From an uncultured Actinomycetota bacterium (lineage in GTDB: Bacteria; Actinomycetota; Actinomycetes; Mycobacteriales; Mycobacteriaceae), in contig CAWAWC010000019.1 in NCBI GenBank assembly GCA_963785625.1, positions 27,008 through 91,007 on the forward strand: DNA of 64,000 bases. Direction: 5' to 3'. Below are positions 24,379-29,778 of this stretch, one piece after another. The notes beneath the pieces were generated by a model. It ran no database searches. It was not told where the DNA came from and saw nothing but the letters and a program-made list of their open reading frames with translations. Each line of letters starts with the position of its first letter. Positions within the stretch are counted from its first letter, which is position 1. A program made the translations under genes and the position numbers.

Positions 24379-25035
24379 TTAGTTGCTGGTTTCCTGGGTG
24401 ACGATGAGCAGGTCGTCGCCGGTCGCCCAGGCTTTGGTGAAGGTGGCCATGGGTATCTGCTCGTCGCGGCCGTTGGGGGTGCCGCTGTCGTTGAGGTGGA
24501 CGATGTTGTCGCGGGTGTCGACTCCGGTGACGACGACGGCGTGGTCGACCTCGGACCGTGTCCCCTGCCCCGGCGGGTAGTTCCAGATGGTTTCGGCGTT
24601 GAGCGCGGCGATCACCTTGTGGCCGCCAGCGAGGTCCTGCTCGAGCCCGTGCATGGTGTTGCCGGTCGTGAGCTGGGATTGGATGCCGTATTTGCCCAGC
24701 AGCACGACCAGGTCTTCGGGGGAGGTGCCGTCGAGGCGGTAGATGCCGCCGCGGTGGGCTTCGCTTTTGGTGAACACGCCGCGTAGCTCGATGCCGAGTT
24801 GGGTGGGTTCTCGCCCGGTGAGCTGGCCGACCACGTCGGCGACGGCTATCAGGCCGCAGTCTTGCTGGTGCTGGTAGCGCCAGTAGGGCGCGGCGGCCGC
24901 GGGGTTGCCGTACATCTGGCCGTTCGGGTCGCCGCTGGCTAACCCGGTGCTGACCTGCGCCAATCCGATGGCGACCGCAATGATCAACGCGGCCACGCCG
25001 GCGGTGTGGGTCCGGTTGAGGATGCCTGAGAACAT
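24379..25035 (-). CDS. Exported papain-fold cysteine peptidase (C39-like)
   Basis: Track ORF 24379..25296 trimmed to ATG 25035. It has an N-terminal signal/anchor (MFSGILNRTHTAGVAALIIAVAIGLAQVSTGLASG). Candidate catalytic residues are Cys in QHQQDCGLIAVADV and His in SEVDHAVVVTGVD. Confidence 0.6.
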   Translation of the reverse strand: MFSGILNRTHTAGVAALIIAVAIGLAQVSTGLASGDPNGQMYGNPAAAAPYWRYQHQQDCGLIAVADVVGQLTGREPTQLGIELRGVFTKSEAHRGGIYRLDGTSPEDLVVLLGKYGIQSQLTTGNTMHGLEQDLAGGHKVIAALNAETIWNYPPGQGTRSEVDHAVVVTGVDTRDNIVHLNDSGTPNGRDEQIPMATFTKAWATGDDLLIVTQETSN

Positions 25036-25151
25036 GACTTCATTGTGAGCACTTGACGGACTTCTCGCTGCGGTTACATGAGCAGCAGGGGATGGGCGCG
25101 AACCGGTCGGTACGAACATGGCCGGGGGAAGCAGCGGGCCGCCCTTGAGTG

Positions 25152-25178
25152 CTAGCACTCTCGTGTATAGAGTGCTAG
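25152..25178. promoter_or_regulatory. CIRCE (HrcA operator) upstream of groES
   Basis: CTAGCACTC-N9-GAGTGCTAG compared with the consensus TTAGCACTC-N9-GAGTGCTAA. An extra half-site GAGTGCTAG at 25147-25155 makes a 14-bp palindrome, GAGTGCTAGCACTC. Confidence 0.85.
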
Positions 25179-25346
25179 GTGGCAATCGGGCGCTCCCCTG
25201 CGTCGGCACCCGCGATGACGGCGCGAGGGCACGGCCGAATGCCGAATCACCTAAAAAACGGACGGTTCGGGGCAAGCCCCGGACCCGCAACAACACAGTC
25301 CGGGCCCCAGGCCCGGACCCAATCTAACTAGTGGAGGGCTCCAATC

Positions 25347-25649: not shown

Positions 25650-27362
<1,713 letters not shown>

Positions 27363-27368
27363 GAGATC

Positions 27369-27438
27369 GATGCCCCGACTGTGGGGCTGATGTACGAAAT
27401 CCCAACGATTTCCGTGCATCAGCCCCACGGTCGGCATC
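27369..27438 (+). other. Long imperfect hairpin immediately after the groEL1 stop
   Basis: GATGCCccGACtGTGGGGCTGATG (27369-27392) pairs with CATCAGCCCCACGGTCGGCATC (27417-27438), with a 24-nt loop. Confidence 0.5.
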
Positions 27439-27470: not shown

Positions 27471-27760
27471 ATGCCGTTGCCGCGACGTGAACCGAACGTA
27501 GCTCGTCACAAGAGTCGAGTCGGCCGCCCCGTGACCGCACAGCAACTCGATAACACAGGCCCAGCTTGCCGCTAAAACCGAGCGGTAAACATGCTGGATG
27601 AGGAACCAACGCTCACCCGCCAGCGGTCGTGAAGGCAGTCCAGCAAACGCCCACGACCGACACGACGTTCGCGCAATTCAGCGCGGCGGACATTCGGGCT
27701 GCCAGAGCGTCGGTCCAGGTACCAACCCCCTCCACCATTTCATCTCAAGGAAGCGATGAC

Positions 27761-28018
27761 ATGACGACTCAGCACTACCGAGTGATCACGAAAATGATTG
27801 TCAGCGGCGCTGTCGCTATCGGCTCCTGTCTTGTGGGAGCAGCACCGGCCGGCGCCGACCCGGACCCGTACGGCGGCCTTCACTGTAGCTGCCAAGAGAC
27901 AGCCCCGGCCGGCAGCGCGGATCCGAGGGAAGAGATCGAACGAGGACTCCGGGAGGGGCACTCTGCCTGGCTGCCGGGACTACCGGCACCGGTCCAGTCC
28001 GGCCAACCGCAGCAGTAA
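27761..28018 (+). CDS. Small exported protein (85 aa), unknown function
   Basis: Track ORF 27629..28018 trimmed to ATG 27761, after the SD AAGGAAG. It has a signal-like N-terminus MTTQHYRVITKMIVSGAVAIGSCLVGAAPAGA/DPDP. I do not recognise a family. Confidence 0.45.
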   Translation: MTTQHYRVITKMIVSGAVAIGSCLVGAAPAGADPDPYGGLHCSCQETAPAGSADPREEIERGLREGHSAWLPGLPAPVQSGQPQQ

Positions 28019-28063: not shown

Positions 28064-28474
28064 TCAGACGCGCACGTCGCGGAGCCCGACGGCAAAGCGC
28101 AAGCCCGAGCAGTTGTAGCACCCCACGCACCCGACGCAGTTTGTGCAGCCGGCGCAACCCAGGCATGCGATGCAACGCCTGCACAATGCGCACGCCACAC
28201 ATGCCACACTCCCGGCGACCGCGAATGACATTGCGGTGACGAGACTTCCGGCGACGGCGGCGCTGCCGGCTGTGGCGATTGACCCGGCCACCCCGGCACT
28301 GGCCACCGTGGCCGCCGATCCGGCGACTGCGGTGCTGGCCACGGTGGCCGCCGAGCCGGCCACCGCCGAGCTGGCGACGGTGGCCACGGACCCAACTACA
28401 GCGGTGCTAGCCACTGTGGCTTGGGAGCCAACGGGACCGCCTTCAGCGCCAATGGGTTTGACCACGTCCTCCAT
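28064..28474 (-). CDS. Orphan 136-aa period-3 repeat protein with a poly-CxxC C-terminal tract (unknown family)
   Basis: C-terminal part of track ORF 28064..28732, from ATG 28474. Sequence: MEDVVKPIGAEGGPVGSQATVASTAVVGSVATVASSAVAGSAATVASTAVAGSAATVASAGVAGSIATAGSAAVAGSLVTAMSFAVAGSVACVACALCRRCIACLGCAGCTNCVGCVGCYNCSGLRFAVGLRDVRV. There are 11 Cys codons (10 TGC, 1 TGT) exactly 3 codons apart. The opposite-strand frame reads a Q/H mixture at these positions. TACATT lies 7 nt upstream of the ATG, so the transcript may be leaderless. Confidence 0.6.
   Translation of the reverse strand: MEDVVKPIGAEGGPVGSQATVASTAVVGSVATVASSAVAGSAATVASTAVAGSAATVASAGVAGSIATAGSAAVAGSLVTAMSFAVAGSVACVACALCRRCIACLGCAGCTNCVGCVGCYNCSGLRFAVGLRDVRV
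28202..28429 (-). repeat. Roughly 36-bp (12-codon) in-frame tandem repeats, about 6 copies (GSxATVASxAVA)
   Basis: Units such as GGC TCG GCG GCC ACC GTG GCC AGC ACC GCA GTC GCC recur with few changes, corresponding to residues 16-91 of the ORF. Confidence 0.85.
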
Positions 28475-28595
28475 TGTCGACAATGTAGACCGTGCCCGTT
28501 GTTTGCGGGGGGCGTCGTCATTGGTGGTGCTAGCGTCCCGAAGATGTCCACTGGCGGGATCGGTGAAGTTCCGGCAATCGAGCGAGGTCAACACG

Positions 28596-29387
28596 ATGGA
28601 TGAACCGCTGCTGCTGCCGCACCGCGATGACCGCGGGGTCGTCACGCTGACGCTGAACCGCCCGCAGGCCTTCAACGCGCTGTCCGAGGCGATGCTCGCA
28701 GCGCTCGGCGAAGCCTTTGATGCGCTCGCCAACGACGACGCGGTGCGCGCCGTCGTGCTCGGGGCATCCGGGAAGGCCTTCTGCGCCGGCCACGACCTGA
28801 AGGAAATGCGGGCCGAGCCTTCGCTCGAGTACTACCAGCGTCTGTTCGCACAGTGCACGGCCGTGATGCTGTCGATCCAGCGCCTGCCGGTCCCGGTGAT
28901 CGCGCGTGTCCACGGTCTCGCGACCGCGGCGGGCTGCCAGCTCGTCGCGATGTGTGACCTGGCGGTGGCGAGCCATGACGCGCGCTTCGCGGTCAGCGGC
29001 ATCAACGTCGGGCTCTTCTGCGCGACCCCGGGAGTGGCGCTGTCGCGCAATCTGCCCCGCAAAGCCGCCTTCGAGATGCTCGTCACCGGAGACTTCGTCT
29101 CTGCCGAGGAGGCACACGCGTTGGGGTTGGTCAATAAGGTGGCGGCGCCCGAGGCGCTGGACGACGAGGTCGAGGCGCTGGTCGCGCGCATCGTCGCGAA
29201 GCCGCGCGTCGCCGTCGCCATCGGGAAGGCCCTGTTCTACCGCCAGATCGAAGTCGGCATCGAGGCCGCCTATGAGGACGCAGGCGCGACGATGGCCCGC
29301 AACATGATGGATCCCAGCGCGCTCGAGGGCGTTCAGGCCTTCATCGAGAAGCGGCCGCCCAGTTGGGCGCTGGCGTCAACGACGTAG
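28596..29387 (+). CDS. Enoyl-CoA hydratase/isomerase (crotonase) family protein
   Basis: Track ORF 28143..29387 trimmed to ATG 28596. MDEPLLLPHRDDRGVVTLTLNRPQAFNALS..., GKAFCAGHDLKEM, ATAAGCQLVAMCDLAVA. About 263 aa, typical for the family. Confidence 0.88.
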   Translation: MDEPLLLPHRDDRGVVTLTLNRPQAFNALSEAMLAALGEAFDALANDDAVRAVVLGASGKAFCAGHDLKEMRAEPSLEYYQRLFAQCTAVMLSIQRLPVPVIARVHGLATAAGCQLVAMCDLAVASHDARFAVSGINVGLFCATPGVALSRNLPRKAAFEMLVTGDFVSAEEAHALGLVNKVAAPEALDDEVEALVARIVAKPRVAVAIGKALFYRQIEVGIEAAYEDAGATMARNMMDPSALEGVQAFIEKRPPSWALASTT

Positions 29388-29469: not shown

Positions 29470-29778
29470 TTACGCCGACCGGCGGATGCCGCGGGTCCGG
29501 CCGATGTCGCCCTTCAGCAGCAGGTCGCGCTCGGATTCCGACAGGCCGCCCCACACGCCGTAGGGTTCGCCCACTTCGAGGGCATGCGAACGGCACTCCT
29601 GGATCACCGGGCAGCGCCGGCACATCTCCTTGGCGCGCTGCTCGCGTTGCATGCGGGCACGGCCACGCTCGCCGTCGGGGTGGAAGAACATCGATGAGTC
29701 GACGCCGCGGCACAGGCCCTGCAGTTGCCAGTTCCAGATGTCGGCGTTGGGGCCAGGTAGCTGCTCAGGCTGTGGCAT
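29470..29778 (-). CDS. whiB3: WhiB-family redox-sensing transcription factor WhiB3
   Basis: 102-aa MPQPEQLPGPNADIWNWQLQGLCRGVDSSMFFHPDGERG...CRRCPVIQECRSHALEVGEPYGVWGG. It has four Cys and the GVWGG turn, and is near-identical to my recollection of Mtb WhiB3. Confidence 0.95.
   Translation of the reverse strand: MPQPEQLPGPNADIWNWQLQGLCRGVDSSMFFHPDGERGRARMQREQRAKEMCRRCPVIQECRSHALEVGEPYGVWGGLSESERDLLLKGDIGRTRGIRRSA

What the first reader, a model, noticed from the sequence alone, without database searches (positions are those of the whole stretch)
28064..28474. Orphan 136-codon ORF built from one unbroken period-3 register: 25 x [G/A]-[S/T/V]-x triplets followed by 11 cysteines spaced exactly CxxC
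**Seen in sequence.**
- From residue 17 to 122, every third residue follows S,T,S,V repeating with period 12 (residues 17-89). It then switches to Cys at 92, 95, 98 ... 122 (CVACALCRRCIACLGCAGCTNCVGCVGCYNC).
- The preceding position is almost always Gly or Ala.
- The N-terminal part is about six copies of a 36-bp unit.

**Strand choice.** Both strands show high GC3 because their third codon positions coincide. However, the minus frame reads an invariant Cys (10 TGC, 1 TGT). The plus frame reads CAG/CAA/CAT/CAC at the same sites, a Q/H mix set only by the neighbour's wobble base, and it hits a TAG at 28116. That pattern argues that selection acts on the minus-strand Cys codons.

**Start.** There is no SD, but TACATT (28487-28482) lies 7 nt before the ATG, which suggests a leaderless transcript.

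**Interpretation (inference).**
- I do not recognise the family.
- [small]-[Cys/Ser/Thr]-x repeats recall azol(in)e RiPP precursors of the heterocycloanthracin/sonorensin type, where CxxC repeats also occur.
- No YcaO/cyclodehydratase, lanthipeptide synthetase or radical-SAM gene lies within the window.
- Alternatives are a thiolate-rich metal (Cu/Zn)-binding or acylated membrane peptide, or a silk-like beta-repeat protein with a cross-linking tail.
Basis: partly seen in the sequence, partly recalled or inferred. Interest (0 to 1): 0.72.

Follow-up and report, generated by a model that had tools for sequence, protein, structure and literature searches.

The report
Conserved unannotated cysteine-ladder repeat protein
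The odd 136-codon reading frame is a real gene for a small protein built from 12-residue units ending in a ladder of 12 evenly spaced cysteine positions; hundreds of mycobacteria and relatives have it, almost none annotate it, and its function is unknown.

Summary
The ORF is not an orphan. More than 520 species-level genomes (Mycobacterium, Mycolicibacterium, Williamsia, Aldersonia, Pseudonocardia) encode a relative. In 80 fetched loci only this frame is always open, and dN/dS is 0.17. The start codon matches the homologues.

The chain is quantised in 12-residue units:
- a variable number with V,S,T,S at every third position;
- exactly three with C,C,C,C (a 36-residue ladder);
- one 12-residue tail with L,A,L,V.

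No Pfam or NCBIfam model fits. Public records say only "hypothetical protein", and the window's exact peptide is absent from a 15-billion-protein collection.

No maturase lies near any copy. Subfamily A, including the window, sits just downstream of whiB3, facing groEL1.

My best reading is a cytoplasmic or membrane-associated stacked-repeat protein whose aligned thiols bind soft metals or do thiol redox chemistry (confidence about 0.4). AlphaFold2 gives moderate confidence for the ladder only, and AF2 is known to over-predict solenoids for repeats.

The main rival is a RiPP precursor matured in trans. It fails the family tests I could run but is not excluded. A similar Cys ladder occurs in the uncharacterised phage family phrog_15341.

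The parts
28064..28474 (-). Complete coding sequence of the 136-aa Cys-ladder repeat protein (ATG at 28474-28472, TGA at 28066-28064)
   Evidence: Searches give the sequence and coordinates. The frame is open in 80 of 80 homologous loci. dN/dS is 0.17. The family HMM hits only this place in the window, at E = 1.3e-54.
28427..28474 (-). N-terminal 16 residues (MEDVVKPIGAEGGPVG): acidic, variable, no signal-peptide features
   Evidence: Subfamily A N-termini carry a net charge of about -2, and the most hydrophobic 9-residue stretch never exceeds GRAVY 1.5.
28211..28426 (-). Six 12-residue units (residues 17-88) with S,T,S,V at every third position and Gly/Ala before them; family consensus V-A-G-S-x-a-T-x-g-S-x-a
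   Evidence: Family-wide phase lock: V 76%, G 87%, S 97%, T 91%, S 93%. At each Ser phase both TCN and AGY codon families are used.
28103..28210 (-). Cys ladder, residues 89-124: 12 register positions (S89 plus 11 Cys) making 36 residues, or three 12-residue units, ending in C-S-G
   Evidence: Seven of the nine ladder positions outside the fetching pattern are 95-100% Cys, one is 71% Cys and 29% Ser, and the ninth (-15) is Cys 95%, Ser 5%. AF2 gives pLDDT 83-87 with a backbone bridge every third residue. There is a weak match to phrog_15341 (E = 2e-5, residues 90-123).
28067..28102 (-). Conserved 12-residue C-terminal tail LRFAVGLRDVRV (family consensus L-R-N-A-V-G-L-R-D-V-H-A). The register continues as L,A,L,V, flanked by charged residues
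   Evidence: the tail is exactly 12 residues in 53 of 79 sequences; G, V and R columns are 96-100% conserved. One search gives GRAVY +3.4 for register 0 and -2.3 for register 1.
28472..28491 (-). Upstream element GGTCTACATTGTCGACAATG. It contains the -10-like TACATT (28482-28487) and the perfect 14-bp palindrome CATTGTCGACAATG (28472-28485), which overlaps the start codon
   Evidence: The same element (CTACATTGTCGACAACGG) lies about 30 nt upstream of the ATG in at least seven subfamily A loci. The consensus sigma-70 scan calls no promoter here.

Best explanation
**Shown.** This is a genuine protein-coding gene under purifying selection. It belongs to an unnamed family of small proteins (about 65-150 aa) that is widespread in Mycobacteriales and some Pseudonocardiales, and gene callers and databases almost entirely miss it.

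After a short acidic N-terminus the whole chain is a single period-3 register with a 12-residue superperiod. Each triplet is [register residue]-[variable, mostly aliphatic]-[small or turn-former: G/A/N/D]. The units are:
- a variable number with V,S,T,S in the register;
- exactly three with C,C,C,C;
- a final one with L,A,L,V, flanked by Arg, Asp and His.

**Inferred.** The 12-residue quantisation suggests a stack of 12-residue turns, that is, a very narrow solenoid of the kind seen in the Tenebrio antifreeze beta-helix, whose every-third residues are C,S,C,A. The L,A,L,V unit with charged flanks would act as an end cap.

**Proposed mechanism.** There is no export signal, so the protein stays in the reducing cytoplasm, possibly membrane- or self-associated because of its greasy repeat surface. 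There the 12 aligned thiols of the last three units would form a compact thiolate array. This array would either chelate soft metal ions (Cu(I), Zn, Cd, possibly As(III)) or cycle between thiol and disulfide. The protein would then act as a metal or redox buffer or sensor. The Ser/Thr units would serve as a length-adjustable scaffold.

In subfamily A the gene sits just downstream of the redox-sensing Fe-S regulator gene whiB3, which fits a thiol or redox theme.
For: **Gene reality**
- More than 520 related loci in one-per-species genomes.
- Sense frame open in 80 of 80 loci; each other frame has stops in 28-62 loci.
- Median dN/dS is 0.17 with pS 0.62 over an ungapped 43-codon block in 81 sequences.
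- Both TCN and AGY codon families encode each conserved Ser.
- The start codon is bracketed by an upstream in-frame stop in most syntenic loci.

**Architecture**
- The Ser/Thr/Val register equals the Cys register in 79 of 80 sequences, and the 12-residue phase is locked to the ladder.
- The ladder is 12 positions, or 36 residues.
- The tail is exactly 12 residues in 53 of 79 sequences.
- In the tail, register 0 is L,A,L,V and register 1 is R,V,R,H.
- Turn-formers (G/N/D) fill the third position throughout the ladder.

**Fold**
- Two AF2 runs give pLDDT 73-87 for residues 90-125, with an unbroken run of single-residue bridges every third residue.
- The Foldseek top lists are non-significant, but one search's consists mostly of beta-solenoids (one search's six hits are mixed) and both include TmAFP 1ezg/1l1i.
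- The TmAFP sequence shows C,S,C,A at period 3. These AFPs are 12- or 13-mers with Cys at every sixth residue (PMC7072191).
- The annotation of Campylobacter phage CPt10 independently recorded weak PF02420 hits on a ladder protein.

**Localisation**
- Subfamily A N-termini are acidic and lack a hydrophobic core region.

**Thiol chemistry**
- The ladder is 31% Cys in strict CxxC spacing. From general knowledge, that is the classic metal-chelating or redox motif.
- The Cys positions outside the fetching pattern are 95-100% conserved.
- whiB3 lies upstream on the same strand in 22 of 25 subfamily A loci, and is only 54-146 nt away in about 9.
- An ars operon (ArsR, ACR3, ArsC) abuts the gene in 4-6 of 20 subfamily B loci.

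**Against a RiPP role**
- No conserved partner or maturase appears in any subfamily.
Against: - No experiment or tool result shows metal binding, redox activity, or even translation.
- AF2 confidence for the Ser/Thr repeat region is poor (pLDDT 30-45).
- AF2 is documented to give confident but unrealistic beta-solenoids for repeat sequences (PMC11795689).
- No structural match is significant.
- The 12-residue indel quantum could simply reflect slippage of the 36-bp DNA repeat, not a structural constraint.
- In the repeat units the most hydrophobic register is the one next to Ser/Thr (GRAVY 2.1 against 0.5). Which face points inward there is therefore undecided, and a soluble solenoid would have an unusually greasy surface. 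Overall GRAVY is +1.05.
- No metallothionein, DnaJ-type or antifreeze model matches.
- The neighbouring-gene hints (whiB3, ars) are each confined to one subfamily. The ars genes are convergent, so they are not co-transcribed.
- Columns 0-9 of the ladder are 100% conserved by construction, because they were the pattern used to fetch the loci.
Confidence: 0.4

Rival explanations
1. RiPP precursor matured in trans. The Ser/Thr/Cys-rich triplet repeats would be the substrate of a cyclodehydratase, lanthipeptide-type enzyme or radical-SAM enzyme encoded elsewhere in the genome. The conserved C-terminal GLRxAVGLRDVH motif would serve as a follower (recognition) sequence shared by the several paralogues in each genome.
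For: - Period-3 Cys repeats define the heterocycloanthracin precursors. These are also missed by gene callers, and in B. anthracis they are encoded 1.27 Mb from their maturation operon (PMC2674419).
- The weak look-alike hits are all to triplet-repeat RiPP precursors: TIGR03601 (E = 1.2e-3 in 1 of 49 members; E = 6.8e-4 for the related ladder protein P0057), HxsA4 (10 of 49), and thiocillin (2 of 49).
- One metagenome-assembled genome carries two copies that fall in different subfamilies and share the same tail, as with scattered prochlorosin-type precursors (general knowledge).
Against: - No hit reaches a curated cut-off.
- The N-terminus is the variable part and the C-terminus the conserved part, which is the reverse of leader-core organisation.
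- The Cys tract has a fixed length, and the residues between the Cys are conserved (K/R-R, V-G, Y/H-N, S-G). Heterocycloanthracin cores instead vary by single C-x-x triplets between strains (compared).
- At 136 aa, with dN/dS 0.17 across the would-be core, it is unlike known cores.
- No maturase-type gene lies within 10 kb in 80 loci, in two distant-branch contigs, or in the 64-kb window.
Confidence: 0.2
2. Small membrane or envelope protein. Either the hydrophobic Ala/Val/Gly/Ser/Thr repeats plus the Leu/Met/Phe-rich segment before the ladder insert into or span a membrane, leaving the Cys-rich basic tail on the cytoplasmic face. Or the protein is exported by a non-classical route and its Cys tail cross-links by disulfides into a hydrophobic surface layer (a silk-, chaplin- or hydrophobin-like role).
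For: - Overall GRAVY is +1.05, and +1.25 for the repeats.
- The segment before the ladder is enriched in L, M, F and I across the family (columns -32 to -24). AF2 places a short helix there.
- K/R-R follows directly inside the ladder, which fits the positive-inside rule (general knowledge).
- The N-termini of subfamily B are hydrophobic (MLVKLLLAPLS...).
Against: - There is no Sec, Tat or lipoprotein signal in subfamily A.
- The hydrophobicity comes from Ala and Val, not the Leu/Ile/Phe typical of transmembrane helices.
- Repeat number varies from about 1 to more than 9 units. That does not fit a fixed membrane span.
- Strict period-3 and period-12 conservation is not a helical periodicity.
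- No envelope or secretion genes are conserved nearby.
Confidence: 0.15
3. Not a functional protein. The ORF would be a by-product of a 36-bp DNA repeat or of selection on the opposite strand, or it would act only as a cis-regulatory Cys/Ser-codon-rich leader ORF, like the mycobacterial poly-Cys attenuator uORFs.
For: - The region is a tandem DNA repeat.
- GC3 is only 0.77.
- Gene callers rarely call it.
- The antisense frame shares its wobble positions and also looks weakly constrained (dN/dS 0.38).
Against: - Only the sense frame is open in all 80 loci.
- dN/dS is lowest in the sense frame, with synonymous sites near saturation.
- Ser is kept across switches between codon families.
- The non-repetitive tail is the best-conserved part.
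- In the window the downstream gene is convergent, so there is nothing to attenuate.
- The plus-strand ORF's hydratase domain starts only at residue 150.
Confidence: 0.03

Closest known systems
Tenebrio molitor antifreeze protein (PDB 1EZG/1L1I; Pfam PF02420 insect AFP repeat)
   Same: - It has a 12-residue repeat.
- Small residues occupy every third position (C,S,C,A in TmAFP; V,S,T,S and C,C,C,C here).
- It has a Cys ladder running along a very narrow stacked structure.
- It appears in both Foldseek top lists, and a related ladder protein aligns to it at E = 0.017.
   Different: - There is no significant sequence or structural match, and PF02420 does not hit any of 49 members.
- TmAFP has Cys every sixth residue, with one disulfide per turn, a secretion signal and an outward Thr-Cys-Thr ice-binding face (partly PMC7072191, partly general knowledge).
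- Here most units have no Cys, the last three have four each, and no export signal is present.
Heterocycloanthracin/sonorensin TOMM bacteriocin precursors (TIGR03601)
   Same: - Cys-Xaa-Xaa tripeptide repeats.
- Small genes that annotation commonly misses.
- Can be encoded far from any maturase (PMC2674419).
   Different: - That family has a conserved N-terminal leader, a Cys-rich core that varies between strains by single triplets, mostly Cys-Gly-Gly, and strict genome-level co-occurrence with cyclodehydratase, dehydrogenase and docking genes.
- Here the N-terminus is variable, the ladder length is fixed, the interleaving residues are conserved, the C-terminal tail is conserved, and the HMM scores fall below its cut-off.
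Bacterial metallothioneins and Cys-lined copper stores (SmtA/BmtA, mycobacterial MymT, Csp1/Csp3)
   Same: - Small proteins.
- About 30% Cys in CxxC/CxC spacing.
- Cytoplasmic.
- Invariant Cys positions.
- The idea of a thiolate-lined core that fills with soft metal ions (general knowledge).
   Different: - No sequence relationship was detected.
- Those proteins lack a long Ser/Thr repeat domain and any 12-residue quantisation.
- Csp proteins are four-helix bundles.
- Metal binding by this protein is untested.
phrog_15341, a phage protein family of unknown function (e.g. hypothetical proteins of Campylobacter phages CP220, CPt10 and CP21)
   Same: - Long C-x-[D/N/G] ladders.
- The window peptide matches the profile at E = 2e-5 over residues 90-123.
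- Related metagenomic ladder proteins match at up to E = 1e-39.
- One of them, P0092, carries the same CSGLRNAVGL-GVHA tail.
   Different: - The match covers only 34 residues of a 276-position profile and may be compositional.
- The phage proteins lack the AVAGS-type Ser/Thr repeats and have other N- or C-terminal parts.
- tblastn with the window peptide finds nothing in phages.
- The function is unknown there too.

Membership tests
Heterocycloanthracin/sonorensin precursor (TIGR03601) | Match to the family HMM at or above its curated cut-off (35 bits) | tested here: not met
   The window peptide has no hit at E <= 1. One of 49 members hits at E = 1.2e-3. The cut-off of 35 bits is shown.
Heterocycloanthracin/sonorensin precursor (TIGR03601) | Conserved N-terminal leader followed by a variable Cys-rich core (PMC2674419) | tested here: not met
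   N-termini differ between and within subfamilies, while the ladder and C-terminal tail are the conserved parts.
Heterocycloanthracin/sonorensin precursor (TIGR03601) | Length variation of the Cys region by single Cys-Xaa-Xaa triplets between close relatives (PMC2674419) | tested here: not met
   The 43-residue ladder block aligns without gaps in 80 of 81 sequences. Length changes upstream are multiples of 12 residues in 72 of 80.
Heterocycloanthracin/sonorensin precursor (TIGR03601) | Cyclodehydratase, dehydrogenase and docking genes present in the same genome | not testable with these tools
   Only up to 10 kb of flank per locus and the 64-kb window could be read, and none was found there. 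Whole-genome co-occurrence could not be computed.
Insect antifreeze 12-residue beta-helix (PF02420, TmAFP) | Match to the Pfam repeat model | tested here: not met
   There is no PF02420 hit at E <= 1 for the window peptide or any of 49 members.
Insect antifreeze 12-residue beta-helix (PF02420, TmAFP) | 12-residue period with small residues at every third position | tested here: met
   The family-wide phase table is and the ladder and tail columns.
Insect antifreeze 12-residue beta-helix (PF02420, TmAFP) | Right-handed beta-helix fold with one disulfide per turn | tested here: inconclusive
   AF2 gives pLDDT 83-87 for the ladder only, with period-3 bridges. Foldseek E-values are at least 0.9. 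AF2 is known to over-predict solenoids for repeats (PMC11795689).
Metallothionein-type proteins (SmtA/BmtA, MymT) | Sequence membership in a described metallothionein family | tested here: not met
   No such Pfam or NCBIfam hit appears for the window peptide or 49 members.
Metallothionein-type proteins (SmtA/BmtA, MymT) | Stoichiometric binding of Zn, Cd or Cu(I) by clustered thiolates | not testable with these tools
   This needs purified protein with metal analysis and spectroscopy.
phrog_15341 (phage Cys-ladder proteins, function unknown) | Profile match over most of the family profile | tested here: inconclusive
   E = 2e-5 and 25 bits, but only residues 90-123 match profile positions 55-88 of 276. 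There is no tblastn match in phage genomes.
Collagen / His-Xaa-Ser (HxsA) triplet-repeat proteins | Model match above threshold; Gly (or His...Ser) at every third residue | tested here: not met
   The best E-values are 1e-3 (Collagen, 12 of 49 members) and 5.6e-3 (HxsA4, 10 of 49), all sub-threshold. The small-residue register is only 44% Gly.

The most novel reading that the evidence does not exclude
The family would represent a previously undescribed protein architecture. It would be a minimal four-sided solenoid with three residues per side. Its core switches from hydrogen-bonded Ser/Thr ladders to three stacked Cys4 layers. Those layers would hold a short linear chain of metal ions (or a polydisulfide) along the helix axis. 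It would act as a thiolate-lined metal store or redox sensor, genetically linked to whiB3 in mycobacteria and with distant cousins in phages.
Probability: 0.15. Interest if true: 0.85.

Novelty: new variant of a known kind. Interest (0 to 1): 0.62.

Why it matters
A conserved gene present in hundreds of mycobacterial and related species, often wedged between two heavily studied genes (whiB3 and groEL1), is missing from most annotations and from every curated family library. Other low-complexity small genes of this kind are probably being missed as well.

The strictly quantised sequence (12-residue units, a 36-residue Cys ladder, a 12-residue cap) is an unusually clean natural repeat design. 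It makes specific, quickly testable predictions about fold and metal or redox chemistry.

- If it binds metals or senses redox state, it adds a new player to mycobacterial metal and thiol homeostasis next to WhiB3.
- If it is instead a trans-matured RiPP, it points to an unrecognised natural-product class in environmental mycobacteria.
- The similar ladder in phage family phrog_15341 suggests the module is used more widely.

Tried and rejected
1. **Enoyl-CoA hydratase extension.** I tested whether the plus-strand 414-aa ORF (28143-29387) is an N-terminally extended hydratase covering the repeat. It is not. The hydratase domain starts at residue 150, the true ATG is at 28596, and the plus frame has stops in most homologues.
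2. **Second homologue search.** A search with only the Cys-rich half returned a single candidate, because the word index handles this composition poorly. That search was wasted.
3. **Deeper AF2 alignment.** An alignment of database proteins raised ladder confidence only modestly and did not rescue the repeat region.
4. **PDB hit 9e5c_0q** ('LIM zinc-binding domain-containing protein', E = 3.8e-5). It is a low-complexity artefact that aligns Cys columns to an ATETVEA repeat.
5. **Large eukaryote-like proteins matching the AVAGS part of the profile** (P0041 Tudor, P0038, P0054, P0073). These are unrelated low-complexity repeats.
6. **N-terminal extensions of database homologues.** They are Arg/Pro-rich over-called ORFs, not domains. 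P0003 (hexapeptide transferase fused to the ladder on an 816-nt contig) looks chimeric.
7. **Mobile elements.** There is no copy on plasmids. Only weak ladder-only matches appear in viral contigs.
8. **Literature.** I found no paper mentioning the motif strings or a Cys-rich gene downstream of whiB3.
9. **RNA families.** No Rfam family lies in or next to the ORF.
10. **Unannotated genes next to a distant member (L089).** They have no family hits.
11. **Terminator between whiB3 and the gene.** The consensus scan calls none, although a strong hairpin is present in L010.
Full report
**1. The observation**

The minus strand of 28064-28474 encodes a 136-aa peptide. Read in one period-3 register it spells E,V,I,E,P, then S,T,S,V six times, then S, then 11 Cys (10 TGC, 1 TGT), then L,A,L,V up to the stop.

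- The residue before each register position is Gly or Ala in 30 of the 37 positions from 16 to 124.
- 30 of the 35 Ser/Thr/Cys residues share one register. The maximum in 200,000 shuffles was 23.
- No other frame of the 64-kb window holds a run of six or more period-3 Cys.

**2. It is a real gene, and not an orphan**

They come from Mycobacterium, Mycolicibacterium, Williamsia, Aldersonia, Pseudonocardia and many actinobacterial metagenome-assembled genomes. I analysed 80 fetched loci.

| Test | Result |
|---|---|
| Open frames | The proposed frame is open in all 80; each of the other five frames has stops in 28-62 |
| dN/dS, sense frame (ungapped 43-codon block, 81 sequences) | 0.17, with pS 0.62 |
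| dN/dS, wobble-sharing antisense frame | 0.38 |
| dN/dS, other four frames | above 1.3 |
| Ser codons at the two invariant Ser phases | Both TCN and AGY families at each phase (78% TCN at one, 79% AGY at the other) |
| Start codon | In most syntenic loci an in-frame stop lies two codons before the conserved Met or Val, which aligns with the window's ATG |

Because both Ser codon families are used, Ser itself is selected, not the DNA repeat.

The plus-strand 414-aa ORF is an over-extended enoyl-CoA hydratase. Its domain begins at residue 150 and its ATG is at 28596.

**3. Annotation status**

- The window's exact peptide is absent from a collection of about 15 billion proteins.
- The few clustered relatives are called 'hypothetical protein', for example WP_264065686.1 from Mycolicibacterium komossense.
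- An exhaustive HMM search of 1.84 billion cluster representatives found only 155 matches (50 at E <= 1e-10). Most are the C-terminal part of over-called ORFs with junk Arg/Pro-rich N-termini.
- No Pfam or NCBIfam model matches the peptide.
- Scanning 49 family members gives only sub-threshold triplet-repeat look-alikes: Collagen, HxsA4, TIGR03601 and thiocillin.
- There is no sequence relative in the PDB.
- No paper holds the motif strings.

**4. Anatomy across the family**

- The Ser/Thr/Val register coincides with the Cys register in 79 of 80 sequences. The one exception has a single-residue deletion in the ladder.
- The 12-residue phase is locked to the ladder: V 76%, A 75%, G 87%, S 97%, x, a, T 91%, x, g, S 93%, x, a.
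- Length differences upstream of the ladder are multiples of 12 residues in 72 of 80 sequences.
- The ladder has 12 register positions, which is 36 residues. Four of them, within columns 0-9, were part of the fetching pattern and are uninformative. Of the other eight, five are 100% Cys and two are 95% Cys. The first is 71% Cys and 29% Ser. The window has Ser there.
- The third residue of each ladder triplet is a turn-former or small residue (A, G, R, D/N, G, G, N, G).
- After the final C-S-G the tail is exactly 12 residues in 53 of 79 sequences. Its consensus is L-R-N-A-V-G-L-R-D-V-H-A.
- In the tail the register residues are L,A,L,V (GRAVY +3.4) and their neighbours are R,V,R,H (GRAVY -2.3 in the window).
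- Some members are little more than ladder plus tail (65-86 aa). The ladder and tail are therefore the core, and the Ser/Thr units are a variable-length extension.

**5. Structure**

Two AlphaFold2 runs (8 and 45 sequences) were uncertain for the Ser/Thr units (pLDDT 30-45). For the ladder they gave pLDDT 73-87, with an unbroken series of single-residue backbone bridges at 90, 93 ... 123. That pattern implies parallel stacking at a constant offset.

Foldseek found nothing significant. That protein is a 12-mer repeat with Cys at every sixth residue (PMC7072191), and its sequence shows C,S,C,A at period 3.

I treat the solenoid as a hypothesis for three reasons:
- AF2 is documented to predict confident but unrealistic solenoids for repeats (PMC11795689).
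- The 12-residue indel quantum could be mutational, through 36-bp slippage.
- In the repeat units the hydrophobic register is the one next to Ser/Thr, so which face points inward there is undecided.

**6. Genomic context**

No gene is conserved next to all copies.

- **Subfamily A** (25 loci, including the window) lies between whiB3 and groEL1. whiB3 is upstream on the same strand in 22 of 25 loci. In about 9 it is only 54-146 nt away. In L017 the arrangement is whiB3, 98 nt, the gene, 99 nt, then groEL1 on the opposite strand. The window's enoyl-CoA hydratase is one of several variable insertions between whiB3 and the gene. Where the two are adjacent, a strong hairpin separates them in L010 (-25.4 kcal/mol, z = -3.7). 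Similar sequence is visible in three other loci. The consensus terminator scan does not call it.
- **Subfamilies C and D** often abut one SDR-type dehydrogenase, on either side. Around them are carotenoid genes and MmpS/MmpL genes.
- **Subfamily B** is scattered. A convergent ArsR-ACR3-ArsC operon follows the gene in 4-6 of 20 loci.
- **Distant-branch contigs** show no maturase either.
- **The window.** Pfam scans of its 20 larger genes find no YcaO, Lan or radical-SAM domain.
- **Copy number.** Each 20-kb locus and the window hold a single copy. One metagenome-assembled genome contributed two different loci; a second apparent pair carries identical protein sequence.

**7. Wider relatives**

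The profile also pulled out proteins from AT-rich organisms and phage-like contigs with long C-x-[D/N/G] ladders.

- P0092 carries the same CSGLRNAVGL-GVHA tail, followed by another domain.
- All of these proteins match the uncharacterised phage family phrog_15341. The window peptide also matches it, at E = 2e-5 over residues 90-123.
- Members of that family are 'hypothetical' proteins of large Campylobacter phages. The CPt10 record even notes weak insect-antifreeze Pfam hits on one.
- The window peptide has no BLAST-level match in phages or plasmids.

**8. Mechanism**

The gene, the family and the quantised architecture are shown. The stacked 12-residue fold with a capping tail is inferred.

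The proposed mechanism is as follows. Subfamily A has no export signal, so the thiols sit in a reducing cytoplasm. Twelve invariant Cys in CxxC spacing would then most plausibly chelate soft metals or cycle between thiol and disulfide. The protein would be a metal or redox buffer or sensor, and the link to whiB3 fits that theme. I put this at about 0.4.

The main rival is a RiPP precursor matured in trans (0.2). The heterocycloanthracin precedent keeps it alive, because that precursor is also uncalled and is encoded 1.27 Mb from its maturases (PMC2674419). Four things argue against it: the reversed conservation pattern, the fixed ladder length, the conserved residues between the Cys, and the failure to reach any model threshold.

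A membrane or envelope role (0.15) is suggested by GRAVY +1.05 and by the Leu/Met/Phe-rich segment before the ladder.

A non-coding or purely regulatory reading (0.03) is contradicted by the selection tests.

**9. Novelty and verdict**

By sequence this is an undescribed family. By likely working principle it is a new variant of the known kinds 'Cys-rich thiolate protein' and 'narrow Cys-ladder repeat protein'. Its function is untested.

It is noteworthy for four reasons:
- It is widespread.
- It is almost wholly unannotated.
- It sits next to whiB3.
- Its sequence design is strikingly regular and makes sharp experimental predictions.

Noticed in passing
window 28472-28491 (-); also L004, L009, L013, L015, L035, L002, L020 upstream of the gene: A conserved element, GGTCTACATTGTCGACAACGG, has the perfect palindrome TTGTCGACAA at its core. 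It lies about 30 nt upstream of the start in several subfamily A loci. In the window it abuts the ATG and forms the 14-bp palindrome CATTGTCGACAATG. It may be an operator in the promoter region shared with the divergent enoyl-CoA hydratase gene. I did not identify a regulator.
   Followed up: partly
L001, L006, L010, L011, L017, L019, L020, L022, L024 (gene at about 10001 in each); window 29470-29778 (whiB3): In subfamily A the gene lies directly downstream of whiB3 on the same strand, with a gap of 54-146 nt. In L010 a strong hairpin lies in between (-25.4 kcal/mol); similar sequence is visible in three other loci. The whiB3-groEL1 interval looks like an insertion hotspot, with 0.5-6 kb of variable genes in other loci, including the window's enoyl-CoA hydratase.
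   Followed up: partly
window 24379-25296 (-): This 305-aa ORF between tsaD and groES has a signal- or transmembrane-like N-terminal segment and a Peptidase_C39_2 domain (27.6 bits against a cut-off of 24). It is not co-conserved with the Cys-ladder gene: its ORF cluster has only two members among 81 loci.
   Followed up: partly
window 27362-27426 (+): There is a sub-threshold match to the mycobacterial sRNA family Ms_IGR-8 (32.3 bits against a gathering score of 44, E = 1.3e-4) immediately after the groEL1 stop codon. It may be the groEL1 3' end or terminator structure.
   Followed up: no
window 27629-28018 (+): A 129-aa ORF lies convergent to the Cys-ladder gene, 46 nt from its stop. It has a signal-peptide-like stretch (MIVSGAVAIGSCLVGAAPAGA) and no family hit. 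It is hardly conserved in the other loci (its cluster has two members).
   Followed up: partly
L032, L037, L044, L057 (subfamily B), downstream of the gene: An arsenic-resistance operon (ArsR-like, ACR3 arsenite carrier, LMW-PTP-type ArsC) lies convergent to the gene and directly after it in several subfamily B loci. This is suggestive for a thiol-rich protein, but it is limited to one clade.
   Followed up: partly
P0057, P0068, P0075, P0058, P0087, P0088, P0091, P0092; L093/L094; Campylobacter phages CP220, CPt10, CP21 (H3-H14): Proteins with long C-x-[D/N/G] ladders occur in phage-like contigs and in large Campylobacter phages. All match phrog_15341 (unknown function). P0092 shares the actinobacterial CSGLRNAVGL-GVHA tail. 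The CPt10 record carries weak 'insect antifreeze' Pfam notes on the gene.
   Followed up: partly
L031 (contig labelled Bifidobacterium breve MAG) and L078 (labelled Polyangia bacterium MAG): Two short contigs assigned to non-mycobacterial metagenome-assembled genomes carry typical members of the family, 66-67% identical to the window peptide. They are probably mis-binned mycobacterial contigs, not real occurrences in those taxa.
   Followed up: no
P0003 (816-nt metagenome contig): A predicted protein joins a hexapeptide-repeat acetyltransferase (PF00132) directly to the last Ser/Thr unit, ladder and tail of this family. It is probably an assembly chimera seeded by the similar ...AVIGAGS... hexapeptide motif.
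   Followed up: no
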